Positions 13,262 through 30,325 of a DNA stretch of 64,000 nt are shown here, one piece after another. The stretch is taken from NCBI GenBank assembly GCA_016932815.1, contig JAFGCC010000025.1, positions 7,133 to 71,132 of the forward strand, written 5' to 3'. Source of the DNA: Candidatus Micrarchaeota archaeon (lineage in GTDB: Archaea; Micrarchaeota; Micrarchaeia; Anstonellales; Bilamarchaeaceae). The position numbers were made by a program, and so were the translations under genes. Under the pieces are notes generated by a model. It did no database searches, was not told the DNA's origin, and saw nothing but the letters and a program-made list of their open reading frames with translations. The stretch's first letter is position 1, and each line of letters opens with the position of its first letter.

Positions 13262-16200
13262 ATGCAAAAATGCAATATACCTCCCTTTTTGGTGCTCATG
13301 GTTGCACTAATCATGAGCGCAGCTTCATTCTCTTACTATGAGTATGGGGGAGCCCTCTACTGCAACACTACCTGCGACGACTGCGAGGACGCGCTCAACA
13401 ACGCAACCTACACTACCGTTTACCTGAACTCCTCCCTTTCTTCGCCAGGCGCAACCTGCATAAGCAATCCCAGCGGCTTCTCCAACAAGGTCTTTGACTG
13501 CCAGGGGAACACAATCACGGGCACGGGAAGCGGCTACGGAATCTACATCTACTCCCCAGCCAAGACCAACCTCACAATAAAGAACTGCCAGGTTTCGGGC
13601 TTCAACTACAACGTATATGCAAGATACCTATCATATTCCCACCTGGACAACCTCACAATCTTCAACTCCTCCACGGATACGCTGTACATCCGCCAGATGG
13701 GCAACTCCACTATCTCCAACACCACGGCCTGCAACTCCTCCCACGAGGCGTTCGGCTTCGACTATTCCGGTGACACCCTCATAATAAACAACACATTCTG
13801 CAATGCCACCCAGCAGGCCCTAGAAGTAAGGGGGTCAATCAACAACACTTTCATCTACAATAACTTCTACAATGCGACTGCGGGAATAGACTTCCACTAT
13901 GCGATGGAGGACTACCTCTACAACACGATTGCCAACAACACGATTTACGACGTTTACCGCGGAATCGCCTTAGCCGAGGGTTTCGTGCACAACCTGATAG
14001 TGAACAATACAATAACCAGCCTCGCCTATTGCCCCCTCGACAGCCGTGAAGGCCACTACCTCTCCATGGAATACTATTATGCTTCAAGCTGTGACAACAC
14101 GATTGAGAACAATACCGGGGACGGAAGGCCCATCTACCACTACCACGATGAAGCGGTGGACCTCAGCGATTTCGAGGCGGCAGAACTCATGCTCTGCAAT
14201 GCGGACGACAGCACGGTGCAGAACGTAACCCTGATAGGGGGAGGAGGAGGCCTATTCAGCATGTTCTCAGACAACCTCATCGTAAACTCGAGCTACTCTT
14301 ACAATGCATCCTGCGGATTCAGGATAAACTACTGCGCATTTACCCTGGTAAACAGCGTAGCCCAGGAAAACGCCCACAGGGACGTGGGCATCAGCCCCTA
14401 TTCCGAAGCCTTCAACATAATCTGCGACCAGCTGAACATCACCAACGTCACGGGTTCCGGAGGCCTCCCCATAAACTTCACCAACGTGCCGGTGGAATGG
14501 AGCGATTTCGAATCATCGCAGGTAATCCTGTGTGGCGCCAACTATTCCAACATAAGCGGGATGACCGTTTCCGGCTCCAGCACGCACAGGAACAACGGCG
14601 TTGACTTATACTCCGCTTACAACATCAACATAAGCTCGTCCACGTCCGATTCCAACTTTTTCGGTTTCCACTACTATTACTGCCACAACATCTGGCTCTA
14701 CAACAGTTCTGCAAGCGGCAATGCGGCAGATGGGATTTACGCGTATTCGTACCCCTACAGCAACAACCTCTCCATAATAGGGAACACCGCAAACGGCAAC
14801 GGGGAGCACGGCATCTACCTGTGGCCGGCAAGGGACAGCACGATTTCGTCCAACACCGCCTCGGACAACGAGTTTTCGGGCATAAACGTGGATTACGAGT
14901 CATCCAACATAACAGTGGATTCGAACACCGCCTCCGGAAACGGAATGGAGGGAATCGGGGTATATTCCTCCTTCAACGTAACCGTTTCCAACAACAGGGT
15001 ATATTCCAACGGGGATTCGGATTCCGAAGTAATCGCGGACGACCCGTTTTTCAATTTTGACTGGTTCCCATACCCCGCCTTTGCGGGGATAAGGATTGAG
15101 TATTCCGACTCATCCTACAGCGCGGACATAACGCTGGCCAACAACACGGTTTACGGAAACGAGTATTACGGCATAGTCGCAAACCTCTCGGACAACGTCT
15201 CCTCCACCAACGACCGCGTTTATGGCAACGGCTTAGCGGAGATATACGCGGGTACCGACGGTACGGCAAGGGAGGTTTACTTTACCGCAATGCTCCTTGA
15301 TTCCTCGGATTACCCGAACGTGACAATCAGCGACCGGCTCGACTCCAGCACTGCATATACAATCGCGAAGGTTTCGTCTCCCAACACCAACTATCCAGGC
15401 GGAACCGCAGTCCAGAACAGGCTAATCAACGTAACCTACATAACCGGCTCCCCGACAATAGATTCATTAACCTGGGCCTGGGGAAACCCGGAGCAGAACG
15501 ATTACGATGAGTCCACTTTCGACTTGTGGAGGTACGTAATAAGCTGGGTGGACCTCAATGCAACCAGCAACACTGCCTCCAATGAACTCAACTACTCTTC
15601 AATAAGCACTGCGGGGGTTTATGGGATGCTCGGAACTTATTTCTGGGGAGACACGGACGATGGCGGCAACGGGCCTGAGCCTGAGTGCGAATCCGATTCC
15701 GACTGCGGAACCTGCGAGGAATGCAGTCGGGGCGAATGCATCCTCCCAAGCGGGGCGTGCCGCTCCGTTTCGGGCTGCACCGGAGCCGGATACTTATGCA
15801 TATCCTGCGAATGCGTCCCTCCCGAATGCATATCTGATTCCGATTGCAATGAGGGATACGAATGCGAGGATTACGAGTGCGTTGAAATTTACATTGAGCC
15901 AGAATGCGCCTCGGACCAAGACTGTGGAGGATGCGAAGAATGCATTGGGGGTGAGTGCGTTCTCCCAAGCGGGGTTTGCTTGTCCGATTCGGAGTGTGCA
16001 GGCGAGGGGGAAGTGTGCGAATCGTGCGGATGCGTGCCTCCCGAGTGCACCAGGGATTCCGACTGCACGGGGGAAGGCGAATCCTGCGTGGATTATGCAT
16101 GCATCCTGCCCGAATGCACAACGGATTCGGAGTGCGCACAGAATGAAGAATGCAGCGATTATGCCTGCGTGGAAAACAAATCCCCACAGGGGGGCACCAC

Positions 16201-16387
16201 CGGAGGCAATGAGCGGGGGCAATCCCAGGAAGTCCCGGGCGCTGGAACCGGAGAGCCCGGAGCCGGTGAAGAAACCGGGGCCGGAATGCCCTCCCCAATC
16301 GAACTGCTCCTTGGAGCGGGAATCGGGGTGGCGGTGCTCTACTTCGCCTGGAAGTTCCTCCTGGGAGGAGCCAGTGCGGGAAAGTGA
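13262..16387 (+). CDS. Large secreted surface protein, paralog 1: signal peptide, right-handed beta-helix (NosD/PbH1-like) repeats, conserved GSPTID..W.W module, Cys-rich repeats, C-terminal TM anchor
   Basis: N-terminal signal peptide MQKCNIPPFLVLMVALIMSAASFS. Many NxxT/NxS-containing beta-helix turns. C-terminal tandem CxSDSDCxxCEECxxGECxLPSGxC units. Terminal hydrophobic helix GAGIGVAVLYFAWKFLLGG. Very high N-glycosylation sequon density. Confidence 0.75.
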   Translation: MQKCNIPPFLVLMVALIMSAASFSYYEYGGALYCNTTCDDCEDALNNATYTTVYLNSSLSSPGATCISNPSGFSNKVFDCQGNTITGTGSGYGIYIYSPAKTNLTIKNCQVSGFNYNVYARYLSYSHLDNLTIFNSSTDTLYIRQMGNSTISNTTACNSSHEAFGFDYSGDTLIINNTFCNATQQALEVRGSINNTFIYNNFYNATAGIDFHYAMEDYLYNTIANNTIYDVYRGIALAEGFVHNLIVNNTITSLAYCPLDSREGHYLSMEYYYASSCDNTIENNTGDGRPIYHYHDEAVDLSDFEAAELMLCNADDSTVQNVTLIGGGGGLFSMFSDNLIVNSSYSYNASCGFRINYCAFTLVNSVAQENAHRDVGISPYSEAFNIICDQLNITNVTGSGGLPINFTNVPVEWSDFESSQVILCGANYSNISGMTVSGSSTHRNNGVDLYSAYNINISSSTSDSNFFGFHYYYCHNIWLYNSSASGNAADGIYAYSYPYSNNLSIIGNTANGNGEHGIYLWPARDSTISSNTASDNEFSGINVDYESSNITVDSNTASGNGMEGIGVYSSFNVTVSNNRVYSNGDSDSEVIADDPFFNFDWFPYPAFAGIRIEYSDSSYSADITLANNTVYGNEYYGIVANLSDNVSSTNDRVYGNGLAEIYAGTDGTAREVYFTAMLLDSSDYPNVTISDRLDSSTAYTIAKVSSPNTNYPGGTAVQNRLINVTYITGSPTIDSLTWAWGNPEQNDYDESTFDLWRYVISWVDLNATSNTASNELNYSSISTAGVYGMLGTYFWGDTDDGGNGPEPECESDSDCGTCEECSRGECILPSGACRSVSGCTGAGYLCISCECVPPECISDSDCNEGYECEDYECVEIYIEPECASDQDCGGCEECIGGECVLPSGVCLSDSECAGEGEVCESCGCVPPECTRDSDCTGEGESCVDYACILPECTTDSECAQNEECSDYACVENKSPQGGTTGGNERGQSQEVPGAGTGEPGAGEETGAGMPSPIELLLGAGIGVAVLYFAWKFLLGGASAGK

Positions 16388-16939: not shown

Positions 16940-17017
16940 ATAAACTCACCGCACAATCCCAAACATTTGTGATAAAAGTTTATTAATCTTCCTAATCTTT
17001 GTCTGGAAAATTTGAGA

Positions 17018-17031
17018 AAAATAATAAATAC
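17018..17031 (+). promoter_or_regulatory. Putative archaeal TATA box for glnA
   Basis: AAAAATAATAAATA lies about 45 nt upstream of the glnA ATG, in a 135-bp AT-rich divergent intergenic region shared with lrp. Confidence 0.35.
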
Positions 17032-17073
17032 TTCCAAATTTCCACCCCAATCACAAACAAAAGGGTGCGAACA

Positions 17074-18399
17074 ATGCAAGATGAGATACTAGAGCGGGCG
17101 GAAAAGGACAACGTGGATTTCGTGAACCTGCAGTTCACGGACCTGATGGGAACGGTGAAGTCCCTCACAATCCCCGTGGGGCATCTCCAGAATTCCCTTG
17201 AATACGGGACCTGGTTTGACGGCTCCTCAATTGAGGGGTTCACGAGGATACACGAGAGCGACATGTACCTCAAGCCGGACACATCCACCTACGCGATTTT
17301 GCCCTGGCAGAGCTCGGAGGGGGGAGTGACCGCCCGCTTCATCTGCGACGTTTACCGCCCGGACGGGACTCCTTTTGAAGGCGACCCGCGCGGAATCCTA
17401 AAGAGGGCAATGGCTGCCGCAAAAGAGCAGGGCTTTGAATATAATACCGGGCCGGAGCTTGAATTCTTCCTTCTGCGCAAGGAAAACGGGAAGCTCCTCC
17501 CCCTGCCGCATGACAAGGGCGGCTATTTCGATTTCACCGCAGATGATGCCTTCCACATAAGAAAGGAAATGGGGCTTGCGCTAAAGAACTTCAACATAGA
17601 CTTAGAGGCAAGCCACCACGAAGTGGCGCTTGGCCAGCATGAAATAGATTTCAAGTATGCAGACGCGCTAACTTCCGCGGACAACGCGACCACGGTGAAA
17701 TTCGTCGCCAAGGCGGTTGCGCAAAAGCACGGGCTCCACGCAACCTTCATGCCCAAGCCGATTGCGGGAATAAACGGCTCCGGGATGCACGTGCACCAGA
17801 GCCTCTTCAAAGACGGAACGAATGCATTCGTGGACGAATCCGACAAGTATTCTTTATCGGAAACCGCATACGGGTTCATAGCAGGGCAGCTATCCCATGC
17901 AAGGGCGCTCTCTGCAATCTTGTCTCCTACCGTGAATTCTTATAAGCGCTTAGTCCCGGGATACGAGGCCCCTGTTTACGTCTGCTGGGGAAGGGTGAAC
18001 CGCTCCGCCCTAATCCGCATCCCCCGCTATTCCAATGGGAAAACGCAGTCCGCCCGCTGCGAGCTTCGCTGCCCGGACCCCGCCTGCAACCCGTATCTCG
18101 CGTTTGCCGCGATGCTGCACGCCGGGCTTGATGGCATAAGCAAGAAGATGTCCCCGCCCGAACCAATTGAAGAGAACATCTACCATTTCGATGGCAAGAT
18201 GCTAAAAGAGAGGAAGGTGGAAACCCTGCCCGGCTCCCTTGGCGAGGCAATTGCCTGCATGAAGGAGGACGCGGTGGTTACAGGTGCCCTCGGCAAGCAC
18301 GCAACCTCAAAATTCATTGAGGCAAAGAGCTGCGAGTGGGACTCGTACCGCCTCCAGGTATCCCCCTGGGAGATAGACGCCTACCTGGATAGGTATTGA
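17074..18399 (+). CDS. glnA: Glutamine synthetase type I
   Basis: VDFVNLQFTDLMGTVKSLTIPV...GSSIEGF and the downstream GS catalytic-domain motifs. Confidence 0.9.
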   Translation: MQDEILERAEKDNVDFVNLQFTDLMGTVKSLTIPVGHLQNSLEYGTWFDGSSIEGFTRIHESDMYLKPDTSTYAILPWQSSEGGVTARFICDVYRPDGTPFEGDPRGILKRAMAAAKEQGFEYNTGPELEFFLLRKENGKLLPLPHDKGGYFDFTADDAFHIRKEMGLALKNFNIDLEASHHEVALGQHEIDFKYADALTSADNATTVKFVAKAVAQKHGLHATFMPKPIAGINGSGMHVHQSLFKDGTNAFVDESDKYSLSETAYGFIAGQLSHARALSAILSPTVNSYKRLVPGYEAPVYVCWGRVNRSALIRIPRYSNGKTQSARCELRCPDPACNPYLAFAAMLHAGLDGISKKMSPPEPIEENIYHFDGKMLKERKVETLPGSLGEAIACMKEDAVVTGALGKHATSKFIEAKSCEWDSYRLQVSPWEIDAYLDRY

Positions 18400-19131: not shown

Positions 19132-22071
19132 ATGTGCAAAAACTACGCATTTACCGCAGCAATTTTGCTGTTTCTGGCGTTCTCGGCATCGTTTGCGATA
19201 GACGTTTCCTCGTGCAACACCACGATTAACGCCTCCGGCGAATACGTCCTGACCTCCAACCTGAGTGGCGCAGGAATTAGCGTAACCGGAATCGACCAGG
19301 TCGCTGAGGCGTGCATACTAATCCAGGCGAGCGACGTTTCAATTGACTGCAACGGGTACAACATTTCCAACAACGGCACATCCGATGCAGCGGGAATAGC
19401 CGCAAACGGCACGGCTTCCAGCACATACACCAACATAACAATCAAGAACTGCCCTTCAATAGACGGATACTTCTCCCAGGTAATACTCAACCACACTGCC
19501 AATGGCAGCATACAAAACGTAAGCGCCCACAACAGCGCTGCGGTAGGCGTATACCTTATCTACACTTCCGGCACCAACCTGACCAACAGCACGTTCTATG
19601 ACGTGGATTATGGGGCATATATCTACAAGTCCAACTCCACTTTCGTTGCTAACACCACAGCATATGCAATCGGGACCATGGGCATACTCCTTGAAAATTC
19701 AAGCTACTGCACAGTGGCAGAGAACATGGTGCACAACTGCTCCACGTATGGGGGCATTGCCATGTATTACGATTCCGATTACAACATGATAATAAACAAC
19801 AGTGTCTGGAACTCCACAGTCGGGGTTGAGCTAAACAGGGTTTCCCACAACAACTTCACCCGGAACCTGCTCTGGGACAATGCATATGCGGGAGTCTATG
19901 CCAATAACGTGTCATGGGAGAGATTCGAGTCTAATACGATATACAATAATACCGATTGCGGGATGAATCTTAGTGCTTTCTCCAACAACACTCTCCTAAA
20001 CAACACCGTGCGCAACCATACCAACACGTATGGGATATACCTGCACACGTACTCTGGATGGAACAACCTCACCAATAACACGGTTTATGGGAATGAAGAC
20101 AGCATATACTTTACCGGCTCAACATACAATGTCCTGCGCGGGAACTTCGTGTACGACAACGAAGAGGGGATTTACTTTATTGGTTCGGCACACAACCTGG
20201 TGTGGGGAAACTTCGCGTATGACAATAATGATGTAGGGATATATCTGGACACTGGTTGCAATTACACCAATATTACAAATAACACAGTCTATGGTAATTA
20301 CGATGGATTTTTTCTGGAAGGGGGCGTAGGTAATAGGGTCTGGGAGAACCAGGCTCGGGATAATTCTGAAGGATTATACGTGCATTCTACAGGATATAGC
20401 TACTTTTATGACAATGACCTGCACCTTAATGTAGATGGCGGAGTCATATTCGTCAGCCACTCGGACAACAATACTCTGGCAAACAATACCGTGCGCAACT
20501 GCCAGGACTATACGTCGGTATCCATTGCCGATTCCGACAACAACACCATAACTGGCAACATGGTGTATGGTTCGTTGGATTACGAGGGATTCTATTTCGA
20601 CACCGTTATGGAAACGCTCGTTGCAGACAATGTGGTGTATGATTGCGGCGACGATGGGATATCCATGTATTATGGCGTGGAAACAACGATTGCCAATAAT
20701 ACTATATACAATGGTTCCAACGAGGGTATCTACCTCTACCGCTGTACAAACGTTACAGTTGAGGGCAATACAATACACTACAGCCCGGATTATCCTGGTA
20801 TCTCCATGTATCGTTGCCCCAACGTTACCCTATCCAGCAACATCCTCTATGCAAACCTTCAGGCGGTATATCTGCGTGACAGCAACTACACGATGGTGGA
20901 AAATGAACTGCGCGGACCAACCGGGGCACAGGCAGACTACACGGTGCTCTCGGCAGAGGACATATTGAATGTGACGGAGCAGTACAGCATAAACTGGAGC
21001 GATTCCCCCTCAACCTTCCCGAGCGGGAAGGCTTCCTTTGCGGGCAAGTTCATCAACATAACGACCGTTGCGGGAAGCCCCAGCATAGACACGATTTCCT
21101 GGTCCTGGCTCCAGGCCGAACTCTCAGGCTACGATGAGGACACCTTTGAATTATGGAGGTACAACGGCTCCAACTGGACGCTCCTCAACGAAACTCCGGA
21201 CACTTCATCCAACCTGTTTACCCAGGGAGACCTGGTACCCTCAAGCATATACGGAATCCTCCAAACCCCCTCGAATGAATCCGGAGGCACTGATGTGGAG
21301 GACTACGAATGCCTCTCCTCGTCCGAATGCCCCGACTGCTACATCTGCAGCGGCCACGAGTGCGTGCTTCCTTCGGGCTCATGCGCAACTGCCTCGGATT
21401 GCTCAGGAGGATACCCGTTCTACACCTGCGAGGAGTGCTCCTGTGTAGGGCACCAATGCAACGTTGATTCTGATTGCGGCGCGGGATACTCCTGTGAAAA
21501 CGGGGCGTGCGTCCCGCCAGAATGCACGCAGGATTCGGACTGCGATGCGGGATATTCGTGCGAGAATTACGAGTGCACTCCCCCGGAGTGCCTTGAAGAT
21601 TCCGACTGCACAGCAGGAGCAACCTGCTCAAACTACGAATGTACTCCTCCAGAATGCACGGTGGATTCCAACTGCAAATCCGGGGAGATGTGCGAGAACT
21701 ACGTGTGCGTCCCATGGAAGTGCAAGGCCAACGCAGACTGCCAGAATGGCTTCTACTGCGACAAGGGGGCGTGCAAGAAAGAGAGCATCCCCGGAGGCCC
21801 GGGAAGCAGCAGCGGAGGAACTCCCTCGGGAACACCCGGAGGAACCGGGGAAGCGGAAGTTCCCCAACCTGAAGAAGAGGGCCCCGGAACGGAACAGGTG
21901 GAATATGCGTTCCCGTTCCTTGAAGGGGAAGCCGGAAGCGGCATAATGCCCGCAATCCAGGTTAGCGAGGAACTAAAGGTTTCAGGATGGTGGATATTCC
22001 TGTTCCTCCTGATTCTTGTGGGAGCATTCTACTTCCTGCAAACTAGGAACAAGGGAAGGCGGGAAGAGTAG
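19132..22071 (+). CDS. Large secreted surface protein, paralog 2 (beta-helix + GSPSID module + Cys-rich repeats + C-terminal TM anchor)
   Basis: Signal peptide MCKNYAFTAAILLFLAFSASFA. NosD-like PbH1 repeats. The module FINITTVAGSPSIDTISWSWLQ...FELWRYNGSNWTLLNETPDTSSN. A C-terminal cysteine-rich array ending in a TM helix (WWIFLFLLILVGAFYFL) followed by a basic tail. Confidence 0.75.
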   Translation: MCKNYAFTAAILLFLAFSASFAIDVSSCNTTINASGEYVLTSNLSGAGISVTGIDQVAEACILIQASDVSIDCNGYNISNNGTSDAAGIAANGTASSTYTNITIKNCPSIDGYFSQVILNHTANGSIQNVSAHNSAAVGVYLIYTSGTNLTNSTFYDVDYGAYIYKSNSTFVANTTAYAIGTMGILLENSSYCTVAENMVHNCSTYGGIAMYYDSDYNMIINNSVWNSTVGVELNRVSHNNFTRNLLWDNAYAGVYANNVSWERFESNTIYNNTDCGMNLSAFSNNTLLNNTVRNHTNTYGIYLHTYSGWNNLTNNTVYGNEDSIYFTGSTYNVLRGNFVYDNEEGIYFIGSAHNLVWGNFAYDNNDVGIYLDTGCNYTNITNNTVYGNYDGFFLEGGVGNRVWENQARDNSEGLYVHSTGYSYFYDNDLHLNVDGGVIFVSHSDNNTLANNTVRNCQDYTSVSIADSDNNTITGNMVYGSLDYEGFYFDTVMETLVADNVVYDCGDDGISMYYGVETTIANNTIYNGSNEGIYLYRCTNVTVEGNTIHYSPDYPGISMYRCPNVTLSSNILYANLQAVYLRDSNYTMVENELRGPTGAQADYTVLSAEDILNVTEQYSINWSDSPSTFPSGKASFAGKFINITTVAGSPSIDTISWSWLQAELSGYDEDTFELWRYNGSNWTLLNETPDTSSNLFTQGDLVPSSIYGILQTPSNESGGTDVEDYECLSSSECPDCYICSGHECVLPSGSCATASDCSGGYPFYTCEECSCVGHQCNVDSDCGAGYSCENGACVPPECTQDSDCDAGYSCENYECTPPECLEDSDCTAGATCSNYECTPPECTVDSNCKSGEMCENYVCVPWKCKANADCQNGFYCDKGACKKESIPGGPGSSSGGTPSGTPGGTGEAEVPQPEEEGPGTEQVEYAFPFLEGEAGSGIMPAIQVSEELKVSGWWIFLFLLILVGAFYFLQTRNKGRREE
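21290..22071. repeat. Roughly 0.8 kb dispersed repeat copy A (3' Cys-rich/anchor region of surface-protein gene 2), highly similar at DNA level to 29520-30325
   Basis: Long runs of identical nucleotides are visible, for example ..TACATCTGCAGCGGCCA.GAGTGCGTGCTTCCTTCGGG.. and ..TGGAA.TGCAAGGCCAACGC.GACTGCCAGAA.GGCTTCTACTGCGA... Confidence 0.7.
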
Positions 22072-22306
22072 GCGCAGGGGGAATTTCTCCCTGCCCATAT
22101 CCTTTTTCTTATTCTTGGGCCCCAAGGGGCTCCTCCAGCTTTTTTGCAGCCGCAGCCTCAATAAAGTTTATATATTTTTGCCTTGTTATCCTGCTATTGC
22201 AACGGGTGTGGGTCCGAACCGCCGCATAATGGGCATTTGCATAAAATGCGCATTTAACGGGAGAGGCGGCAGCGGATTTGATGGGAATGCTAGCATATTG
22301 CAGCAT

Positions 22307-25300
22307 ATGGTGAAGACAATGAACAAAGGATTGGTTTTGCTTGGAATTCTGGTGCTTTTTGGGGCGGTTTTTTCAGCCGGGATGGGACATAGGGAAGTTT
22401 CGTACAGGGACAACGACAAGGTTGCGGAAATCTGGCACGATTCTTCCAAGATGGCAACCGTTGAAATCAGGAATTCAATGGAAAAGCGCGGCGGCCTCAA
22501 TTACCTGACCGACTGCGGAATCCTTACCTGCTCCCTTTATCTTAGCGTTTCCGCAGAATCCGCAATGGGAATTAGCGGGGCCGCAAGCAACCTCCACGCA
22601 ACGTACGCAGGAACATATTACAAAAGCATAGAACCCGTTGAAATAAAAGAGCCAATCTACGAATTCGTTGAAGAAGAATACACTTATGAAGAATGCGCAA
22701 ACACGACAATCGAGGAGGATGGCAGAAACGAGACCTCCCTCGAGTGCACCGAATCAACAGGCACCAGGACTGCAAGGATAATCACCGGATACGAAACGCA
22801 CATGGAAATGCGGGAAGTGTGGAAAGAGGAGCCCGGAAGGTTCGGCCACGGCCCCGTGGAAGTGAGGATTGATTTCGTAAAAGACGACCCCGCCGCGGTA
22901 GTGGACCTCTTTGCGGTAGTTGACAATGCCCGCATTGAGAGGTGGGCATGGTGGGATAGCAGTTGGCTCTACAAAGTCAGGGTAAACCTCACTTCCGGAG
23001 TGGAGGAAACCCTGAATGATTATCCCGCGCATTTCCAGCTGGACACCGCCACCCTGATTGGCGATTCTAAGATGCAGTCAGACTGCGGCGACCTCCGCGT
23101 AGTAAGCTGCGATGAGAGCGGGGAGGTCCCATTCGAGATGGAATATTGCAACCAGGGCAACACCGACATTTACGCAAGAGCGACCCTTGAGCCTTCCCCC
23201 GCGCTAAACTGCGTCTACGTATACTACGGGAACCCCGGAGCAGAAGACGGGCAGGACACCTGCAACGTCTGGAGCAACAATTTCACGAGGGTTTACCACT
23301 TCGAAGAGCCTATTTATTCGGGAAGCATGTTCGACAGCTCCTGCCACGCAAACGGAAGCTACAACGGGACAGGCTACATGGAAGATGGCATATGGGGAAA
23401 CGGAGTCCGGCTCTACGCCAACTCGGTAACATACGTGGAATTCCCCAATACGTACGAATGGGCGGACGGGAACGCATCATTTAGCATATGGGCAATCGCA
23501 AACTCCTCCCAATATGTGGGCAATACAATCTTCTCCCTGGTCAGCGCCTACACGGACCGCACGGGCCTTTGGGGGTGGAGCGTGAAACTATATCCCCAGA
23601 ACATTATAGCAAACGCGCGCATGGCGGATGTAATAGTTGAGTCACAGCCAAGCGGCGACACGAGCATGACCGGGAAATGGAACTCATGGATGCTCTGGTC
23701 GGTATCCCAGAACTTCTCAGGATACGGAAGCGCAATGTTCGTAAACGGGAGCCTGGTCGCAACCCAGGCCAACTCAGCCGTGAACAACGGCTACCCGGGG
23801 GTGCACATCGGCAACGATTACATATACCAGAATAGGGCCTGGAGAGGGGCCTTTGATGAGTACCGCGAGAGCAACGTAACAAGGAGCGCAAACTGGACGA
23901 TGGCGGAATTCCTGCAGGATTATGTGGTTGGAAACGAGGAATACCCCGAATCCACTCTTGCCAGGACGTCAATGGCCCTATCTCCTTCCACGCTGTACAT
24001 AGACGTGGTGGATGTTACCTGCTCTGTGAGCTATGACTCATCTGTGGACGAAGAATTCACCGCAAGCATGGGCCTGGCCATAAACGGGGTCCCAATAGGG
24101 GAATTCAACGTTACAAACAGCACATACCAGAACAAGGTTGTGTGGAACCAGACTTTCAGCGTGGAGGATTATACGCCCCTGGGGTCAAACCTCTCCTGCT
24201 GGAGCGAGGCCCACGATATTGAAACAACGCTTGAGATAGCATACACCGAGAACAAGAGCATAACCAACCTCGTGCCAGGATGCATGGTCTTAGATGAGGC
24301 GGGAACCTTTGAGCTAGAGGGCGGCATCTACGGAGCAGAAGACGTAAGCGGGGTATCCGGAATCTCAAGCGCGTGCGTGATAATCAACCATGGCGAAGTT
24401 ACGCTAAACTGCAGCGGCTACTCAATGGACGCAAACAACACCCCGGATTCTGCGGGCATACTGGTAAATGCAACCGGGGCATTGATTACTAACTGCCCCT
24501 CAATTTCCAGCTATGAAAAGGGAATCTATTTCCAGAACGTGCAGCAGGGGGCGGCGGAAAATACGAGCGCCTACAATTCAACCGAGGCAATAGCAGTCTA
24601 TGCCTCCTCTGGGATAAACCTCACAGGATGCATCTCCCACAACAGCACAAAAGGGATAATGCTTGATGGTGCGACCGGAATCCGCCTGGAAGGCAACATC
24701 TTCTTTGGCAACGGCTACGATTTCCATGTGGGCAACAGCAACTACACGATGCTCACCAATTACTTTACCCCGGATGGAACATTTACCAATTACACGAACC
24801 TCAGCGTGGCTGATGCCGTAACGCTTTCCGGGGCTTACATGGTTAGCTGGAGCGCAAACCCCGGCGTCGCGATTGCGGGCACGAGCTTTGCACAGAAATT
24901 CATCAACATCACCACAATTGGCGGAACGCCATCAATAGATGAATTGAACTGGAGCTGGAGCTGTTCGGAGTCATTGTGCTACAAGGAGGAAACGCTCAAC
25001 CTCCACCACCTCAATTCCACGGGGGGCTGGACACTCTTGAACGACACCCCGGACACGGCCAACAACGTCCTCACGCTCTATGATTTGGAGCCAGAAGGCG
25101 TTTATGGGATTTTTGACAACAACCTGCCTCCAGGGGTGGGGAACGTGACATTGAACACAACCAACGCAACCAACTCATCTTTGGAAAACCTGACATTGTA
25201 CATGGATTCCTATGACCCCAACGGGAACAGGATAAAGAACATAACCAACTGGTATTATGGCAACAATTACAAGGGCCCCAATGCGCCGACTAGTTCCATA

Positions 25301-26401
25301 ACCGCCCTCAATATGCCCTTTGAAGGCGGAAGCTGCCCGGAGTACACAAAGGACTACTCCAACCACTCCTACAACGGGACCGTGGTCGGGGCGACCTGGA
25401 ACGCAACCGGAGGGCACGACGGGTACGGAGCCTACCATTTTGACGGGGACGATTACATCACGGCTTCCGACTCTTTGCTTAACCTGCCAAGAGGATATAC
25501 GATGTCCGCCTGGTTCAACACTTCGGACAAGAGCCGCGACCACTTCGTCTTGTCCTGGGGGAGCAACACCCCGCTTGGCGCAAGGAGCATATTCGTGGAA
25601 GAAGGTACGGGATATTTCTCCTTCTCAGGATACGTGGAAACCTACCACACGTCTGTTGATGTGGCAGACGGGGAATGGCACCTGCTGAACGCAGTGCACG
25701 CTTCCGATGACATGGTAACCTTCTACGTTGATGGGGAATATGCGGGAGGGGACGGGCTGCCCCTGACTCAGACAATTACCTACACGGAAACGGTAATCGG
25801 GGCCGACCCTGACAAGGCGCAGAACGCCAATGCGACAATAGATGACGTGGTGATTTTCAACCGCGCCCTGAGCGCGGAGCAGATCCAGGCACTCTATGAG
25901 AACCGGACGGACATAATCGTGCCAGAAGAAACAGAGCTTTCGGACAAATGGTACACCTGCGTGACTCCCAACGACGGGACGCTGGATGGGAACGAAACCT
26001 GCTCAAACGACATGTTCCTAAGTGGCATCACATCATGCATGCAATTAAACTCCATAGCGAATTACACCCTGGTAAACGACATATATGGCGCCCCTTTTGA
26101 GCTTGACCCGTCAATGGGCGTTTTAGATGTGTGCCTGGCCCCCTACGCATGGGCAACCATAGACTGCAATGGCCATAGCATAATAAACGATGGCACCCCC
26201 AACGCTGCAGGAGTGATACTCAGGGATTACGGAGAGAACACGCGGGACTGCGCGTTTATTGCAGGCTATGAGGTAGGCATTTACTTCCACGGCGCAGACC
26301 ACTCGGAAATCAGGAATGTAACAACCGCAAACTCGACGGGGTCCGGAATATACATCTATAGCTCCGAACACATTAGTATCGTCAATTCCACCCTCGGGTA
26401 A
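22307..26401 (+). CDS. Large secreted surface protein, paralog 3, with two LamG/ConA-like lectin domains and beta-helix repeats; C-terminally truncated relative to its paralogs
   Basis: Signal peptide MVKTMNKGLVLLGILVLFGAVFSAG (ATG at 22307; the ORF is open from 22016 but overlaps gene 2). It carries the Laminin_G_3 hallmark ATIDDVVIFNRALSAEQIQALYE plus a second degenerate copy. It has a GTPSID module. It ends inside a beta-helix head domain without Cys-rich repeats or a TM anchor. Confidence 0.7.
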   Translation: MVKTMNKGLVLLGILVLFGAVFSAGMGHREVSYRDNDKVAEIWHDSSKMATVEIRNSMEKRGGLNYLTDCGILTCSLYLSVSAESAMGISGAASNLHATYAGTYYKSIEPVEIKEPIYEFVEEEYTYEECANTTIEEDGRNETSLECTESTGTRTARIITGYETHMEMREVWKEEPGRFGHGPVEVRIDFVKDDPAAVVDLFAVVDNARIERWAWWDSSWLYKVRVNLTSGVEETLNDYPAHFQLDTATLIGDSKMQSDCGDLRVVSCDESGEVPFEMEYCNQGNTDIYARATLEPSPALNCVYVYYGNPGAEDGQDTCNVWSNNFTRVYHFEEPIYSGSMFDSSCHANGSYNGTGYMEDGIWGNGVRLYANSVTYVEFPNTYEWADGNASFSIWAIANSSQYVGNTIFSLVSAYTDRTGLWGWSVKLYPQNIIANARMADVIVESQPSGDTSMTGKWNSWMLWSVSQNFSGYGSAMFVNGSLVATQANSAVNNGYPGVHIGNDYIYQNRAWRGAFDEYRESNVTRSANWTMAEFLQDYVVGNEEYPESTLARTSMALSPSTLYIDVVDVTCSVSYDSSVDEEFTASMGLAINGVPIGEFNVTNSTYQNKVVWNQTFSVEDYTPLGSNLSCWSEAHDIETTLEIAYTENKSITNLVPGCMVLDEAGTFELEGGIYGAEDVSGVSGISSACVIINHGEVTLNCSGYSMDANNTPDSAGILVNATGALITNCPSISSYEKGIYFQNVQQGAAENTSAYNSTEAIAVYASSGINLTGCISHNSTKGIMLDGATGIRLEGNIFFGNGYDFHVGNSNYTMLTNYFTPDGTFTNYTNLSVADAVTLSGAYMVSWSANPGVAIAGTSFAQKFINITTIGGTPSIDELNWSWSCSESLCYKEETLNLHHLNSTGGWTLLNDTPDTANNVLTLYDLEPEGVYGIFDNNLPPGVGNVTLNTTNATNSSLENLTLYMDSYDPNGNRIKNITNWYYGNNYKGPNAPTSSITALNMPFEGGSCPEYTKDYSNHSYNGTVVGATWNATGGHDGYGAYHFDGDDYITASDSLLNLPRGYTMSAWFNTSDKSRDHFVLSWGSNTPLGARSIFVEEGTGYFSFSGYVETYHTSVDVADGEWHLLNAVHASDDMVTFYVDGEYAGGDGLPLTQTITYTETVIGADPDKAQNANATIDDVVIFNRALSAEQIQALYENRTDIIVPEETELSDKWYTCVTPNDGTLDGNETCSNDMFLSGITSCMQLNSIANYTLVNDIYGAPFELDPSMGVLDVCLAPYAWATIDCNGHSIINDGTPNAAGVILRDYGENTRDCAFIAGYEVGIYFHGADHSEIRNVTTANSTGSGIYIYSSEHISIVNSTLG

Positions 26402-26632
26402 GCCTGAACCGGGGAGGCAGAGCGCCGCCGGCACGCTGAGCGCATGGCAGCAGGGGCACACGGCAAGCGGGGCGCCCCCCTGCAATCGGCATTCCGCCTG
26501 CGCCTCCCGCTTCCTAGGAAACGGGGCGTGCGGGCGCAGGGGCATCCCGGCATTGGGCGCAATCGCCCCACCCCCGCTTCTCTGAGGGCACCCATCACAA
26601 CATTTATATCCGTTGTCTGCAATCCATTTGGT

Positions 26633-29600
26633 ATGTGCAAGAATTTCGTTAAATTGGCAGTATTGTTGGCATTTTTCGCATTCTCCCTCTCCTTTGCGGT
26701 GGATGTCAGCACGTGCCAGGCGATTACCTCTTCTGACACGTATGACCTTACAACCGACCTTACGGGGGCGCCAATAGCAATAACCGGAATATCGCAGATA
26801 GATCAGGCGTGCCTGGCAATCCAGGCTGACAACGTAGTCATAGACTGCCATGGCCACTCAATTAGCAACACAGGGGTTTCCGATGCTGCAGGGATAGCGA
26901 GGAACCTGACTTCCACAAGCACGGTGACAATCCGCAACTGCAGGATTGCATATTACCACCAGGGTATCTCCCTGAGATACCTCTCGGGGGGAGCCGTGTT
27001 GAACAACACGATATTCAACACCTCGCACTACGGGCTTTCGATGTCCCAGAGCTGCTCTGGCACCGTAGTTTCCAACAACACGTTCCACAACAACACCGAC
27101 CATGCGTTGTACATTGGGGGGAACTCCGATAACAACATCATTACCAACAACACCCTATGCAACACAAGCGGCGCGTTTTCGGCCTTTAATCTGGGCAGCA
27201 ACTGCGAATACAATACTTTCGAAGGGAACCTCCTCTATGGAAACTATGTGGGCATAGAGCTTGGCTATGCCTCCAACAACAGCATCGAGAACAACACCAT
27301 AAGGAACAATAGCTGGCATGCAGTCGTCATGGACCATGGCGGGGACAACAACCTGACCAACAACATAGCCTATGGCAACTATTACGGGTTCTACGTTGAC
27401 CCCTATTCGCAGGGAAACGTTTTCGTAAACAATACTGCCTACGACCACATCTATTACGGGTTTTACGTCTACCGCGATAACGAGGGCACAACCCTAATCA
27501 ATAACACCGCCTACGGCAACAGGTATGGTTTCACGGTCGGTGCAGATTCCCACAACACCACCCTGTGGGGGAACACCGCCTACGAAAACGAGGACGGTTT
27601 CAGCATAGCCTCAAGCGACAACACCCTGACCAACAACACCGCATACAACAACACCCACCGTGGGTTCTACCTGTATACCGGCTACGGGAACACGCTCATA
27701 AACGACACTGCATACAACAATGGGGATGAGTTCTGCGTAATAGGCAGCAACTACACGCTGGAGTCGTTCCTCTTCCTAAACCCGTCCGGCTCCCAGGTGA
27801 ATTACACCAACCTTTCAATAGGCGACATCATGGACACCTCCTCGGAGGAATATGCGATAGGGTGGGGCGAATCCCCCGGCTCTTCCCCCAGCGACAGGAG
27901 TTCATTCGAAAACAAGTACCTCACGATATCCGCTGCGGGCGGCAGCCCAAGCATAGATACAATAACCTGGCACTGGCAGGATTCGGAGACTTCCGGATAT
28001 GTGGAAGCAATGCTTGAACTCTGGAAGTACAATGCTTCGGGTTGGACGCTCCTAAACAACACTCCTGACACTTCCGCCAATACGCTAACGCAGTATGCAA
28101 TGTCCCCTTCAAGCACATATGCGATATTCGAAAACGTTTCCGTGGACTGCGAAGTTATCTCCTCCCCGGGCACTTACAACCTCTCCTCCAACCTCAGCGG
28201 CGCCCCGAACCCGCTCTCCACCGTGGCGGGGACTACCGCCGCGTGCATAATAATCGCCTCTTTGGGCGTAACCCTAGATTGCAAGGGCTTTACCATAACC
28301 AACAACGGCACTTCCGATGCGGTAGGAATAGCCGTAAACGGCTCTTCCACGATAGATTACACCGGAGTGGCGATACAAAACTGCCCGGATATCCATGGCT
28401 ATGAAAACGGGGTGCAGCTATACCGCACCGCCGCAGGCACAATACGGAATTCAAGCATGTCGGATGGGCGGTATGGGATATACGTGTATGCTTCCCAGAA
28501 CAATTCGATAACCAACAACACCGTGCACAACAACTCCCAGGATGGGATATACCTGTATTCAAGCGTGGGCAACAACGTAACGGGCAACACCGTGCACAGC
28601 CATTTCTCAGCAGGGATTGCCCTCAGCACGCTGTCTATGCACAACAACCTCTCCAACAACGTGCTATACAACAATTCCGACCCGAGCTTCTACATCTCGC
28701 TTAGCTCCAACAACACGATTTCCAACAATACCGTCTACAACACTTCTGGTTCCGGGATATACCTCTTCTCATCCTCCGAATGCAACCTTACCGGCAATAC
28801 GGTATATGATAGCACCAGCGGAATAGAACTCAACTCGAATTCAATGCGCAACAGGGTAAGCGGCAACACGCTTTATGATAACGCAATGTGCGGAATCTGG
28901 CTCCAGTCCAGCTCTTCCAACAACACGGTATACGATACCTCGGTGTCCAACAACACTTACGGGATTTTCGCGCTCCAGAGCCACGACAACAACTTTACCG
29001 AAAGCTTCATCTGCAACAATTCGGATTACGGGCTTTACATGGTCTCTAGTTACGGGAACAGGCTGGCCAACTACAGCATCTACGGCGACCAGTATGGCGT
29101 ATACTCTTCGAGCAGCAAGTACGTGCTGGATACTGTCAGCTTCCTTCCCTATGGCGGTGAGTCCGTGGATTATTCCGCCCTCTCGCTCACCGATTCCAAC
29201 GGGGCAGGCGCATACAGGATAAACTGGAGTGCCACCCCGGGAAGCTCCCCTTCCTCGCGGAGCAGTTTCGAGAACAAGTTCCTCAACATTTCAACCGCTT
29301 CCGGGAGCCCCAACATAACCAGCATAGAGTGGAGCTGGGAAGATTCGGAATCATCCGGATACACTGAATCGGACTTTGAGCTCTGGAAGTACAACGCTTC
29401 CGGCTGGACGCTCCTAAACGACACCCCTAATGTCTTTTCCAATACGCTAACCCAGTATGCAATGCTGCCAGGAAGCATATACGGAATCTTCGCATATGAA
29501 ACTCCCACTTCCACAGGAGGGGATGATGAGGATTATTCGTGCATGACTTCCTCGGACTGCCCGGAATGTTACATCTGCAGCGGCCATGAGTGCGTGCTTC

Positions 29601-30325
29601 CTTCGGGTTCGTGTGCAACCTCTTCCGATTGCTCGGGCAGCGCCCCATTCTACAACTGCGAGGGCTGCTCGTGCGTTGGATACGAGTGCAATTCCGCTTC
29701 GGACTGCGGCGCAGGGTACTCATGTGAAGAAGGCGAATGCGTGCCCCCAGAATGCACGCAGGATTCCGACTGCGATTCCTTTGGGGCAGGATATTCATGC
29801 GAGAACTATGAATGCGTGCCCCCGCAGTGCCTAAATGACTCTGCCTGCGGTGCAGGCGGAACCTGCTCAAACTACGTTTGCATCCCCCCAGAATGCACAA
29901 GCAATTCCAATTGCGGTTCAGGCAAGGTGTGCGAAAACTACAAGTGCGTGCCCTGGAAATGCAAGGCCAACGCCGACTGCCAGAACGGCTTCTACTGCGA
30001 CAGCGGAGTATGCAGGAAAGAGAGCATACCCGGAGGCCCTGGCGGAAGCAGCGGGGGCAACGGAGGCTCCGGAGGCAAGCAGGCAGGTGAATCAGTTGGC
30101 GAAGCGGAAGTGCCACAGGAGCAGGAGCCAGAAACCGAGCAGGTAACCCAGCCATTCCCGTTCCTAGAAGGAGACACTGAGGGGGGAATAATCCCCAACG
30201 TAGTGATAAACGAGGAAACCAAGATTTCAGGCGGATGGGTGTTCCTATTTGCGCTTGCGGCAGTTGCGGTGCTCTACTTTGCGTTCCACAGGGGAAGGAG
30301 AAGGGGAAGGGAAAAAGAGGAGTAG
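26633..30325 (+). CDS. Large secreted surface protein, paralog 4 (internally duplicated beta-helix + module, Cys-rich repeats, C-terminal TM anchor)
   Basis: Signal peptide MCKNFVKLAVLLAFFAFSLSFA, homologous to the gene 2 N-terminus. Two beta-helix plus GSPSID/GSPNIT module units. The C-terminal Cys-rich region is near-identical to gene 2. TM helix GWVFLFALAAVAVLYFAF followed by RGRRRGREKEE. Confidence 0.75.
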   Translation: MCKNFVKLAVLLAFFAFSLSFAVDVSTCQAITSSDTYDLTTDLTGAPIAITGISQIDQACLAIQADNVVIDCHGHSISNTGVSDAAGIARNLTSTSTVTIRNCRIAYYHQGISLRYLSGGAVLNNTIFNTSHYGLSMSQSCSGTVVSNNTFHNNTDHALYIGGNSDNNIITNNTLCNTSGAFSAFNLGSNCEYNTFEGNLLYGNYVGIELGYASNNSIENNTIRNNSWHAVVMDHGGDNNLTNNIAYGNYYGFYVDPYSQGNVFVNNTAYDHIYYGFYVYRDNEGTTLINNTAYGNRYGFTVGADSHNTTLWGNTAYENEDGFSIASSDNTLTNNTAYNNTHRGFYLYTGYGNTLINDTAYNNGDEFCVIGSNYTLESFLFLNPSGSQVNYTNLSIGDIMDTSSEEYAIGWGESPGSSPSDRSSFENKYLTISAAGGSPSIDTITWHWQDSETSGYVEAMLELWKYNASGWTLLNNTPDTSANTLTQYAMSPSSTYAIFENVSVDCEVISSPGTYNLSSNLSGAPNPLSTVAGTTAACIIIASLGVTLDCKGFTITNNGTSDAVGIAVNGSSTIDYTGVAIQNCPDIHGYENGVQLYRTAAGTIRNSSMSDGRYGIYVYASQNNSITNNTVHNNSQDGIYLYSSVGNNVTGNTVHSHFSAGIALSTLSMHNNLSNNVLYNNSDPSFYISLSSNNTISNNTVYNTSGSGIYLFSSSECNLTGNTVYDSTSGIELNSNSMRNRVSGNTLYDNAMCGIWLQSSSSNNTVYDTSVSNNTYGIFALQSHDNNFTESFICNNSDYGLYMVSSYGNRLANYSIYGDQYGVYSSSSKYVLDTVSFLPYGGESVDYSALSLTDSNGAGAYRINWSATPGSSPSSRSSFENKFLNISTASGSPNITSIEWSWEDSESSGYTESDFELWKYNASGWTLLNDTPNVFSNTLTQYAMLPGSIYGIFAYETPTSTGGDDEDYSCMTSSDCPECYICSGHECVLPSGSCATSSDCSGSAPFYNCEGCSCVGYECNSASDCGAGYSCEEGECVPPECTQDSDCDSFGAGYSCENYECVPPQCLNDSACGAGGTCSNYVCIPPECTSNSNCGSGKVCENYKCVPWKCKANADCQNGFYCDSGVCRKESIPGGPGGSSGGNGGSGGKQAGESVGEAEVPQEQEPETEQVTQPFPFLEGDTEGGIIPNVVINEETKISGGWVFLFALAAVAVLYFAFHRGRRRGREKEE
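29520..30325. repeat. Roughly 0.8 kb dispersed repeat copy B (3' region of surface-protein gene 4)
   Basis: It pairs with 21290-22071. The encoded peptides differ at only a handful of positions. Confidence 0.7.

What the first reader, a model, noticed from the sequence alone, without database searches (positions are those of the whole stretch)
26100..26640. Paralog 3 ends inside a beta-helix head domain with a single in-frame stop, lacks stalk and anchor, and sits in the same reading frame as paralog 4, which starts 230 nt later
From about 26100, gene 3 starts a new beta-helix head unit (…IDCNGHSIINDGTPNAAGVIL…). It terminates at TAA 26399-26401 after only about 90 residues of that unit, with no Cys-rich stalk or TM anchor. 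Gene 4 (own signal peptide, ATG 26633) is in the same frame (frame 2). This looks like a recombination scar or a decaying copy. Either an ancestral C-terminus was replaced when gene 4 was inserted, or gene 3 is a truncated, possibly secreted non-anchored variant. Its two LamG/ConA-like lectin domains are unique in the cluster.
Basis: seen in the sequence. Interest (0 to 1): 0.5.

Follow-up and report, generated by a model that had tools for sequence, protein, structure and literature searches.

The report
Conserved anchor-less archaeal lectin surface protein
Gene 3 really does stop part-way through a beta-helix domain and has no membrane anchor, but a relative from another metagenome ends at exactly the same residue, so this is an old, maintained short form of an ordinary archaeal surface protein, not an error or a decaying gene.

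Summary
The coordinates are right. Gene 3 (22319-26401, 1360 aa; NCBI labels the identical protein Candidatus Micrarchaeota) ends at TAA 26399-26401, after about four coils of a beta-helix head. It has no beta-sandwich, no Cys-rich stalk and no C-terminal TM helix. Gene 4 starts at ATG 26633 in the same frame.

Two details do not hold. There are two in-frame stops, not one (TAA, GCC, TGA 26405-26407). The shared frame is chance: in the ortholog the spacer is 128 nt, not 231, and the frames differ.

A 70%-identical ortholog (P0002, JGI metagenome) sits in the same gene2-gene3-gene4 order and ends at the same residue (…VNSTLG* / …INCTTG*). The stub evolves faster than the rest of the protein (43% vs about 72% aa identity). 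It is still under purifying selection: pN/pS 0.54 (CI 0.41-0.72), only in-frame indels, and no recent gene conversion. AlphaFold2 folds it confidently through to the C-terminus.

In distant DPANN relatives the same LamG-to-head module continues with more coils and a beta-sandwich. So the stub is truncated relative to its ancestral form, but the truncation is old and fixed.

Verdict: a genuine anchor-less, lectin-bearing member of an ordinary archaeal surface-protein cluster. Low to moderate interest.

The parts
22319..26401 (+). Gene 3 CDS (1360 aa plus TAA). Domain order: signal peptide, N-terminal domain, DUF2341-like, LamG 1, Ig-like, short beta-helix head plus beta-sandwich, LamG 2, C-terminal beta-helix stub. 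No stalk and no anchor.
   Evidence: Identical to P0001 (NCBI, Candidatus Micrarchaeota archaeon). Pfam domains. The ATG at 22319 has GGTGA 6 nt upstream and is conserved in L001. The only hydrophobic segment is aa 1-24.
23249..23953 (+). LamG / ConA-like lectin domain 1 (aa ~311-545)
   Evidence: Pfam Laminin_G_3 (two stretches in gene 3) and a weak Toxin_R_bind_N match. dN/dS 0.12 against the ortholog.
24269..25123 (+). Internal complete head: about 6 beta-helix coils (aa 651-815) plus a beta-sandwich (aa 816-935)
   Evidence: Pfam Beta_helix/NosD. In the alignment it serves as the reference for a complete head.
25328..25909 (+). LamG / ConA-like lectin domain 2 (aa ~1004-1197)
   Evidence: Pfam Laminin_G_3, E = 1e-25 for the whole protein. 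The AF2 model matches lectin domains of trans-sialidases, pentraxins, neurexin LNS and neurotoxin Hc by Foldseek.
26027..26398 (+). C-terminal beta-helix stub (aa 1237-1360): an N-terminal cap plus about four coils, ending at a coil boundary
   Evidence: Aligns with the first ~125 aa of complete heads. 43% identical to the ortholog's stub, with the same end. pN/pS 0.54, CI 0.41-0.72. AF2 pLDDT 86-97 through to the last residues.
26399..26407 (+). Double stop: TAA 26399-26401, GCC, TGA 26405-26407
   Evidence: Read directly from the sequence. The ortholog also uses TAA at the aligned position.
26402..26595 (.). Non-coding GC-rich spacer (about 74% GC), with no recognisable relic of a head, stalk or anchor
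   Evidence: Most GC-rich 180 nt of the window. No beta-helix-like translation in any frame. No Rfam hit. Fold z = +0.34. Not alignable with the L001 spacer. No Pfam hit for ORFs over it.
26596..26632 (+). Gene 4 promoter region: TATA box TTTATAT at 26603-26609, about 27 nt before the ATG
   Evidence: Conserved with L001 (TTTATATC.GTTG.CTGCAAT), and by eye resembles the region upstream of gene 2.
26633..30325 (+). Gene 4 CDS (1230 aa): signal peptide, two head plus sandwich units, Cys-rich stalk, G/S/E/P linker, C-terminal TM helix and basic tail. Candidate membrane-anchored partner.
   Evidence: Translation. Pfam Beta_helix/NosD. TM-like segment at aa 1196-1221. Paralogous to gene 2 over most of its length.

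Best explanation
Gene 3 is a functional, natively anchor-less secreted glycoprotein of a Micrarchaeota (DPANN) archaeon. It belongs to a tandem cluster of beta-helix surface proteins.

Shown here:
- Its reading frame ends at a real stop after a four-coil beta-helix stub.
- This end was fixed before the window lineage and its nearest known relative diverged (dS about 1).
- It has been kept since by purifying selection, although the stub changes roughly twice as fast at non-synonymous sites as the rest of the protein.
- The stub is a shortened version of the head that normally follows the LamG module in giant DPANN surface proteins. So a truncating rearrangement happened once, long ago.

Inferred, not shown:
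- The protein is exported through its N-terminal Sec-type signal peptide and N-glycosylated (48 N-x-S/T sequons).
- Having no anchor of its own, it is either released or held on the cell by non-covalent binding to an anchored protein. The neighbouring stalk-and-anchor paralog, gene 4, is the obvious candidate.
- Its two lectin domains would bind glycans on the host or on its own surface.
For: 1. The stop and the missing stalk and anchor are in the sequence.
2. A Logan contig of run SRR13394437 is identical over 7083 nt including stop and spacer.
3. Ortholog P0002 (70% identity, 1352 aa, JGI 3300039093) ends at the aligned residue with TAA. It lies in the same order: gene-2 anchor end, gene 3, gene 4, then radical SAM and further shared genes.
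4. Nei-Gojobori for the stub: pN 0.336, pS 0.620, dN/dS 0.34. Bootstrap pN/pS is 0.54 (0.41-0.72), with 0 of 2000 replicates reaching 1. There are three small indels, all in frame.
5. A substitution-only neutral simulation at d = 1.0 keeps the ORF and the stop position in 0.08% of runs.
6. No long DNA tracts are shared with other heads, so gene conversion does not explain the intact ORF.
7. The stub's 43% identity is in the range of the heads of the anchored neighbour gene 4 against its ortholog (32-39%).
8. AF2 gives the stub pLDDT 86-97 through to the C-terminus.
9. No downstream frame continues the helix. This contrasts with L021, where a look-alike short protein is a frameshift-split giant gene.
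10. Relatives L012, L013 and L018 have the same LamG-to-head junction, but with further coils and a beta-sandwich.
Against: - Only one orthologous locus exists in the collections searched, so 'conserved' rests on a single pairwise comparison.
- dS is near saturation (pS 0.62), so the dN/dS value itself is imprecise.
- The stub's non-synonymous rate is significantly higher than that of the rest of the protein (permutation P < 0.0002). That is compatible with relaxed constraint as well as with diversifying pressure.
- AlphaFold confidence says nothing about the stability of an open-ended helix.
- There is no expression, proteomic or read-level evidence.
- The Logan contig may derive from the same reads as the NCBI genome, so it is not a fully independent check.
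- The partner-binding step is pure inference.
Confidence: 0.75

Rival explanations
1. Decaying copy: gene 3 lost its C-terminus and the remaining stub, or the whole gene, is drifting towards a pseudogene.
For: The stub is truncated relative to the ancestral LamG-head-sandwich module. It is the least conserved part of the protein: 43% aa identity and the highest dN/dS, 0.34.
Against: - The ortholog has the same end residue at dS about 1.
- pN/pS is 0.54 with a CI that excludes 1.
- All indels are in frame.
- The neutral simulation keeps the ORF and stop position in 0.08% of runs.
- The rest of the gene has dN/dS 0.12-0.31.
- Head domains of the intact neighbour diverge even more.
- No gene conversion is propping the ORF up.
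Confidence: 0.07
2. Artefact: an assembly error, frameshift or sequencing error cuts a longer gene, which really continues into an anchor or into gene 4.
For: Tandem paralogs are prone to misassembly. A look-alike case elsewhere (P0132 in L021, a 3.3x-coverage contig) is indeed a frameshift-split gene.
Against: - A Logan contig of run SRR13394437 is identical.
- An ortholog from a different metagenome has the same end.
- Two stops lie within 9 nt.
- No frame downstream encodes helix-like sequence.
- Gene 4 has its own conserved TATA box, ATG and signal peptide, like gene 2.
Confidence: 0.03
3. Recoding: stop-codon readthrough fuses gene 3 to the in-frame gene 4, giving an anchored giant protein.
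For: In the window, gene 3 and gene 4 share a frame, and that frame is open from 26408 to the ATG at 26633.
Against: - Two stops (TAA and TGA) would have to be read through.
- In L001 the genes are in different frames, and the gene-3 frame hits another TAA before the TATA box.
- The spacer's translation is not conserved beyond the promoter DNA.
- An open frame in 73%-GC DNA is expected by chance.
Confidence: 0.01
4. Gene fission or replacement scar that happens to be tolerated. An ancestral giant LamG-head-sandwich-…-stalk-anchor gene was broken when a gene-2-like unit (promoter, signal peptide, heads, stalk, anchor) recombined into its last head. The stub is retained only because removing it would destabilise LamG 2.
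For: - Genes 2 and 4 are paralogous over most of their length, and their promoter regions look alike by eye.
- Head number differs between gene 4 and its ortholog.
- Giant relatives carry LamG followed by several heads.
Against: - I found no relic of the lost part and no junction homology.
- This is compatible with the best explanation as its historical prelude, and does not compete with it.
- Selection on beta-helix signature positions (C..NGHSI.N.G…AAG, NST.SG) in the stub argues for a folded, used domain.
Confidence: 0.14

Closest known systems
Archaeal cell-surface / S-layer-type proteins built from right-handed beta-helix (PbH1/CASH, NosD-like) modules, e.g. the Methanosarcina surface proteins analysed by Jing et al. 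2002 (cited in PMC5498576)
   Same: Signal peptide, Beta_helix/NosD repeats and dense N-x-S/T sequons. Genes 1, 2 and 4 also have a stalk and a C-terminal TM anchor. The genes lie in tandem paralog clusters.
   Different: Gene 3 adds DUF2341-like and two LamG domains and has no anchor. Its last beta-helix is cut to four coils. No solved structure is detectable by sequence for gene 3, and gene 4 has only a weak AlgG epimerase match.
Modular LamG-repeat giant surface proteins of DPANN archaea (Woesearchaeota, Nanoarchaeota, Micrarchaeota)
   Same: The unit 'LamG, then IVSQETE..W.C.TPNDG..G..CSN, then beta-helix head' is shared at 27-42% identity. 17,997 library proteins match at E<=1e-3, some carrying many copies of the module.
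   Different: Those proteins run to several thousand residues and continue after the head with more coils and a beta-sandwich. Gene 3 is 1360 aa and stops inside the head.
Two-component S-layers with an anchor-less large subunit and a membrane-anchored stalk subunit encoded by the adjacent gene (Sulfolobales SlaA/SlaB, Veith et al. 2009). The same arrangement was proposed for the Micrarchaeum harzensis S-layer protein in bioRxiv 10.1101/2021.04.28.441871.
   Same: A large (1360 aa) glycoprotein with a signal peptide only sits directly upstream of a gene for a stalk-plus-TM-anchor protein. No oligo-T run separates them. The cited preprint raises exactly this kind of anchoring for a Micrarchaeon, whose S-layer protein also has a copper-binding-protein-like domain.
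   Different: I did not test homology to SlaA/SlaB. A phmmer search of gene 3 and gene 4 against the sequences of all solved structures returned only the weak AlgG match for gene 4. No lattice, abundance or interaction data exist. Gene 4 has its own promoter. This is an analogy of mechanism only.

Membership tests
Right-handed parallel beta-helix repeat proteins (Pfam Beta_helix PF13229 / NosD PF05048) | Significant match to the family HMMs above the gathering score | tested here: met
   Gene 3: PF13229 at 40.0 bits (cut-off 25.9) and PF05048 at 34.6 bits (cut-off 23.6). Genes 1, 2 and 4 score much higher.
Right-handed parallel beta-helix repeat proteins (Pfam Beta_helix PF13229 / NosD PF05048) | The C-terminal stub itself adopts the coiled beta-helix fold | tested here: met
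   The stub aligns colinearly with complete heads. The AF2 model shows regular short strands with pLDDT 86-97 over residues 300-425 of the model. This is a prediction only.
LamG / ConA-like lectin superfamily (Pfam Laminin_G_3 PF13385) | HMM match above the gathering score, and a jelly-roll fold | tested here: met
   PF13385 at 91.1 bits (cut-off 27.6), two stretches. Foldseek places LamG 2 with the lectin domains of trans-sialidase, pentraxins, neurexin LNS and neurotoxin Hc.
LamG / ConA-like lectin superfamily (Pfam Laminin_G_3 PF13385) | Carbohydrate or other ligand binding | not testable with these tools
   Needs glycan arrays or binding assays.
Anchored head-stalk-anchor paralogs of this cluster (genes 1, 2, 4) | A beta-sandwich domain closing each head | tested here: not met
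   It is present after gene 3's internal head but absent after the terminal stub.
Anchored head-stalk-anchor paralogs of this cluster (genes 1, 2, 4) | Cys-rich stalk repeats and a C-terminal TM helix with a basic tail | tested here: not met
   Gene 3 has 6 Cys in its last 350 aa against 30-32 in the others, and no C-terminal hydrophobic segment.
SlaA/SlaB-type two-component S-layer | Sequence or structural homology to SlaA or SlaB | not tested
   No direct comparison was made. phmmer of gene 3 and gene 4 against the sequences of all solved structures returned only a weak AlgG match for gene 4.
SlaA/SlaB-type two-component S-layer | Physical complex of the anchor-less subunit with the anchored stalk subunit, forming a lattice | not testable with these tools
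   Needs cryo-ET, pull-downs or complex prediction.
Pseudogene / decaying paralog | Neutral evolution (dN/dS about 1), frame-disrupting changes, and an end that varies among relatives | tested here: not met
   pN/pS 0.54 (0.41-0.72), in-frame indels only, identical end in the ortholog.

The most novel reading that the evidence does not exclude
The four-coil, open-ended C-terminal beta-helix is not a leftover. It is a dedicated docking element through which the anchor-less lectin protein (gene 3) is held on the membrane-anchored stalk protein encoded next to it (gene 4, or paralogs 1 and 2). That would give Micrarchaeota a two-component surface adhesin or S-layer, analogous to SlaA/SlaB, that presents lectin domains to the host. 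The conserved N-x-T sequon five residues from the C-terminus, and the stub's faster evolution, would then reflect co-evolution with the partner's equally fast-evolving heads.
Probability: 0.12. Interest if true: 0.55.

Novelty: new member of a known kind. Interest (0 to 1): 0.25.

Why it matters
Surface proteins are the main candidates for how DPANN episymbionts recognise and hold their hosts. How Micrarchaeota anchor their outer proteins is an open point (bioRxiv 10.1101/2021.04.28.441871).

This locus gives a clean, conserved example of an anchor-less lectin-bearing protein encoded directly upstream of a stalk-and-anchor paralog. That makes a concrete pair to test for a two-component arrangement.

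For annotation, the lesson is that a beta-helix that 'ends too early' need not be a pseudogene or a misassembly. The contrast case L021 shows what a real frameshift split looks like.

Beyond that, the finding is ordinary: one more domain-shuffled member of a very large, fast-evolving family.

Tried and rejected
- **More orthologs.** The full-length query found only P0001 and P0002 among 5.8 billion proteins. The first scans of genome and metagenome contigs with the full-length alignment found nothing. The second scans, with the C-terminal 358 aa, found only distant LamG-module relatives. A profile search of the word-indexed database returned LamG-only hits.
- **Representative-library search**. 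P0132 and P0147 looked like further proteins ending soon after the head start. P0132 turned out to be a frameshift-split giant gene. P0147 was not followed up and looks like a fragment.
- **Relic of a lost C-terminus in the spacer.** I tried six-frame translation, blastn against the window, and Smith-Waterman against the 3' flanks and linker/anchor regions of genes 1, 2 and 4, with shuffles. The only result was a 19-nt motif shared with the region upstream of gene 1.
- **Spacer as an RNA or a small gene.** No Rfam hit, folding no better than shuffles, and no Pfam hit for ORFs on either strand.
- **Bacterial promoter/terminator scan.** Uninformative for an archaeon.
- **Gene conversion as the reason the stub ORF is intact.** No supporting DNA tracts.
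- **Longer gene 4 starting at ATG 26444.** The upstream extension is not conserved in L001, and the TATA box lies inside it.


Full report
**Observation**

The window carries four paralogous surface-protein genes on the + strand: gene 1 (13229-16387), gene 2 (19132-22071), gene 3 (22319-26401) and gene 4 (26633-30325). All four match Pfam Beta_helix/NosD. Only gene 3 also has two Laminin_G_3 stretches and a weak DUF2341 match.

Gene 3 ends at TAA 26399-26401. Gene 4 starts at ATG 26633, 231 nt later, and both genes are in frame 2.

A hydropathy scan finds an N-terminal signal segment in all four proteins. A C-terminal TM-like segment is found only in genes 1, 2 and 4. The last 350 residues hold 30-32 Cys in those three and 6 in gene 3.

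Two details do not stand.
- A second in-frame stop, TGA 26405-26407, follows one codon after the TAA, so the stop is not single.
- The shared frame is a 1-in-3 coincidence, and an open frame over 75 codons of 73%-GC DNA is also expected by chance.

**Where the protein stops relative to a complete head**

The last 124 residues align colinearly with the first ~125 residues of every other head in the cluster (28-31% identity) and with the ortholog's stub (42%). In a multiple alignment with gene 3's own internal head and with heads from distant relatives, the stop falls at a coil boundary after the fourth coil. Complete heads continue with at least two more coils and a ~120-residue beta-sandwich (…NYTNLS…W.W…YGIF).

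The junction 'LamG, IVSQETE..W.C.TPNDG..G..CSN, head' is an old and very common module. It occurs at 27-42% identity in a Nanoarchaeota single-cell genome (L013), another Micrarchaeota MAG (L018) and a Woesearchaeota MAG (L012). In each the ORF runs off the locus and the head is complete. An exhaustive profile search found 17,997 proteins at E<=1e-3, many of them 3,000-7,800 aa with up to about 20 matched stretches. The stub is therefore a shortened derivative of a normally longer unit.

**Is the short end real, and is it maintained?**

The identical protein is in NCBI as 'right-handed parallel beta-helix repeat-containing protein [Candidatus Micrarchaeota archaeon]' (P0001). A Logan contig of run SRR13394437 is identical to the window over 7083 nt, including the stop, the spacer and the start of gene 4.

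The only close relative in 5.8 billion proteins is P0002: 70% identity, 1352 aa, from JGI metagenome 3300039093. It covers the whole query and ends at the aligned residue, …VNSTLG* against …INCTTG*, both with TAA. Its locus (L001) is syntenic. It holds the C-terminal anchor of a gene-2 ortholog, gene 3, a gene-4 ortholog, then radical-SAM, two unknown genes, PadR and ABC-transporter genes, as in the window.

Nei-Gojobori estimates between the two genes:

| Region | aa identity | pN | pS | dN/dS |
|---|---|---|---|---|
| Whole gene | 70% | 0.175 | 0.563 | 0.19 (dS about 1.0) |
| Nine segments upstream of the stub | 63-77% | 0.127-0.240 | 0.415-0.680 | 0.12-0.31 |
| Stub (aa 1237-1360) | 43% | 0.336 | 0.620 | 0.34 |

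Further tests are.
- Bootstrapping codons gives pN/pS 0.54 (95% CI 0.41-0.72) for the stub, with 0 of 2000 replicates reaching 1. The rest of the gene gives 0.29 (0.25-0.32).
- The stub's pN is higher than that of any of 5000 random sets of 122 codons.
- The three indels in the stub are all in frame.
- A substitution-only neutral simulation at d = 1.0 kept the ORF open with the stop in place in 0.08% of runs.

Gene conversion from other heads could mimic constraint, but there are no long similar DNA tracts. There are none in the window at E<=0.01, and one 149-nt tract of 66% identity in L001.

The stub's divergence is also not unusual for heads here. The heads of gene 4 and its ortholog are only 32-39% identical.

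AlphaFold2, run on gene 3 aa 936-1360 with a shallow 15-row alignment, gives the stub pLDDT 86-97 through to the C-terminus. LamG 2 is less confident, at about 55-82. Foldseek against the PDB returns ConA-like lectin domains for the LamG part.

**The spacer and gene 4**

The 231-nt spacer shows no beta-helix-like translation in any frame. That contrasts with L021. There P0132, a protein that at first looked like a second example of the short architecture, simply continues in another frame into the next gene. It is a frameshift-split giant gene on a 3.3x-coverage contig.

The spacer is the most GC-rich 180 nt of the whole window, 74% against 53% overall. The L001 spacer is also 70% GC, but it is 128 nt long and puts gene 4 in a different frame from gene 3. 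It aligns with the window only over the last ~45 nt, which hold a TATA box about 27 nt before the ATG.

No Rfam family matches. Folding is no better than for shuffled sequences. ORFs over the spacer have no Pfam hit. It is not significantly similar to the 3' flanks or the linker/anchor-coding regions of genes 1, 2 and 4. The one exception is a 19-nt motif that also lies upstream of gene 1. There is no oligo-T run between the gene-3 stop and the gene-4 TATA box in either genome, so co-transcription is possible but untested.

Genes 2 and 4 are paralogous over most of their length. The gene-4 ortholog in L001 (972 aa) is colinear with gene 2 and has one head unit fewer than the window's gene 4. 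Head number therefore changes quickly in this cluster.

**What it is and how it probably works**

Shown:
- Gene 3 is a genuine gene whose product lacks any C-terminal anchor.
- It ends in a truncated beta-helix.
- That architecture is shared with the nearest relative and is under purifying selection.

Inferred:
- It is exported by a Sec-type signal peptide and heavily N-glycosylated (48 sequons).
- It is either released or held at the surface by non-covalent binding to an anchored protein.

The arrangement is a large anchor-less protein directly upstream of a stalk-plus-anchor protein. This resembles the SlaA/SlaB two-component S-layer of Sulfolobales. The same mode of anchoring has been suggested for the S-layer protein of Ca. 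Micrarchaeum harzensis, which also has only an N-terminal hydrophobic segment and a copper-binding-protein-like domain (bioRxiv 10.1101/2021.04.28.441871). A laminin-G-encoding locus has also been noted in the Micrarchaeon Mia14 (PMC5498576). This is an analogy of mechanism only; no homology to SlaA/SlaB was tested.

**Rivals**

- Decay is contradicted by the conserved end and the selection signal.
- Misassembly or frameshift is contradicted by the identical Logan contig, the ortholog, the double stop and the absence of a continuing frame.
- Readthrough into gene 4 is contradicted by the double stop and by the frame difference in L001.
- A historical fission or replacement event is plausible, given the longer ancestral module, the gene 2/gene 4 paralogy and the variable head number. 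It is not a competitor but the likely origin of the present form. No junction relic was found, so it can be neither dated nor oriented.

**Limits**

- Conservation rests on one ortholog.
- dS is close to saturation.
- The Logan contig may share reads with the NCBI genome.
- AlphaFold confidence is not evidence of stability.
- No expression or localisation data exist.

**Verdict**

The finding is a correct reading of the sequence with two small errors. The object is a new member of a known and very large kind of archaeal surface protein. Interest is low to moderate. The one reading that would raise it, that the stub is a docking module in a two-component surface structure, is untested.

Noticed in passing
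window 26402-26595; L001 4419-4505: The gene 3 / gene 4 spacer is the most GC-rich 180 nt of the 64-kb window (74% vs 53%). The orthologous spacer is also 70% GC, but it differs in length (128 vs 231 nt) and cannot be aligned apart from the promoter. Composition is conserved without sequence conservation. No RNA family, no stable fold and no coding signal were found. Unexplained.
   Followed up: partly
window 26491-26509 and 13171-13188: A ~19-nt motif (ATTCCGCCTGC…CTCCC) in the spacer recurs upstream of gene 1 (local alignment z = 5 against shuffles). It may be a shared regulatory site. I did not see it clearly in L001.
   Followed up: no
window 26633-30325 vs L001 4547-7465: Gene 4 has two head plus sandwich units (1230 aa). 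Its ortholog has one long head (972 aa) and is colinear with window gene 2 (45% identity). Head number and head sequence (32-39% identity) change quickly, while the stalk/anchor end appears much better conserved.
   Followed up: partly
L021 7800-8500 (ENA ERZ26692762 ctg81746, 3.3x coverage): P0132 (1742 aa: four LamG domains, then a short beta-helix and a stop) looked like the same short architecture. But its beta-helix continues in another frame into the next 3051-aa gene, so it is a frameshift-split giant gene, either a sequencing error or a real split.
   Followed up: yes
window 22160-22321; L001 200-362: Gene 3 has a conserved TATA-like box about 140 nt upstream and a GGTGA Shine-Dalgarno 6 nt before ATG 22319. 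Genes 2 and 4 have their TATA box only about 27 nt before the ATG, which looks leaderless. The two kinds of gene in the cluster may use different modes of translation initiation.
   Followed up: partly
L001 4041-4415 vs L001 2320-2680: The ortholog's stub is more similar to its own internal head (47.5% aa) than to the window's stub (42%). At DNA level there is only one 149-nt tract of 66% identity, so this is either an old intragenic exchange or faster divergence in the window lineage.
   Followed up: partly
window 26381-26398; L001 4398-4415: Both stubs carry an N-x-T glycosylation sequon five residues from the C-terminus (VNSTLG / INCTTG). A glycan there could shield the open end of the helix. 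This is speculative.
   Followed up: no
window 16999-18399: A glutamine synthetase gene (Gln-synt_N plus Gln-synt_C, E = 5e-131) sits between surface-protein paralogs 1 and 2, so the 'cluster' is not contiguous.
   Followed up: no
window 22319-22390: The gene 3 N-terminus MNKG/LVLLGILVLFGAVFSAG could also be read as a class III (prepilin-like) signal, K-G followed by a hydrophobic stretch. The ortholog has K-R-S at that position, so a Sec-type signal cleaved near FSA/G seems more likely. Not tested.
   Followed up: no
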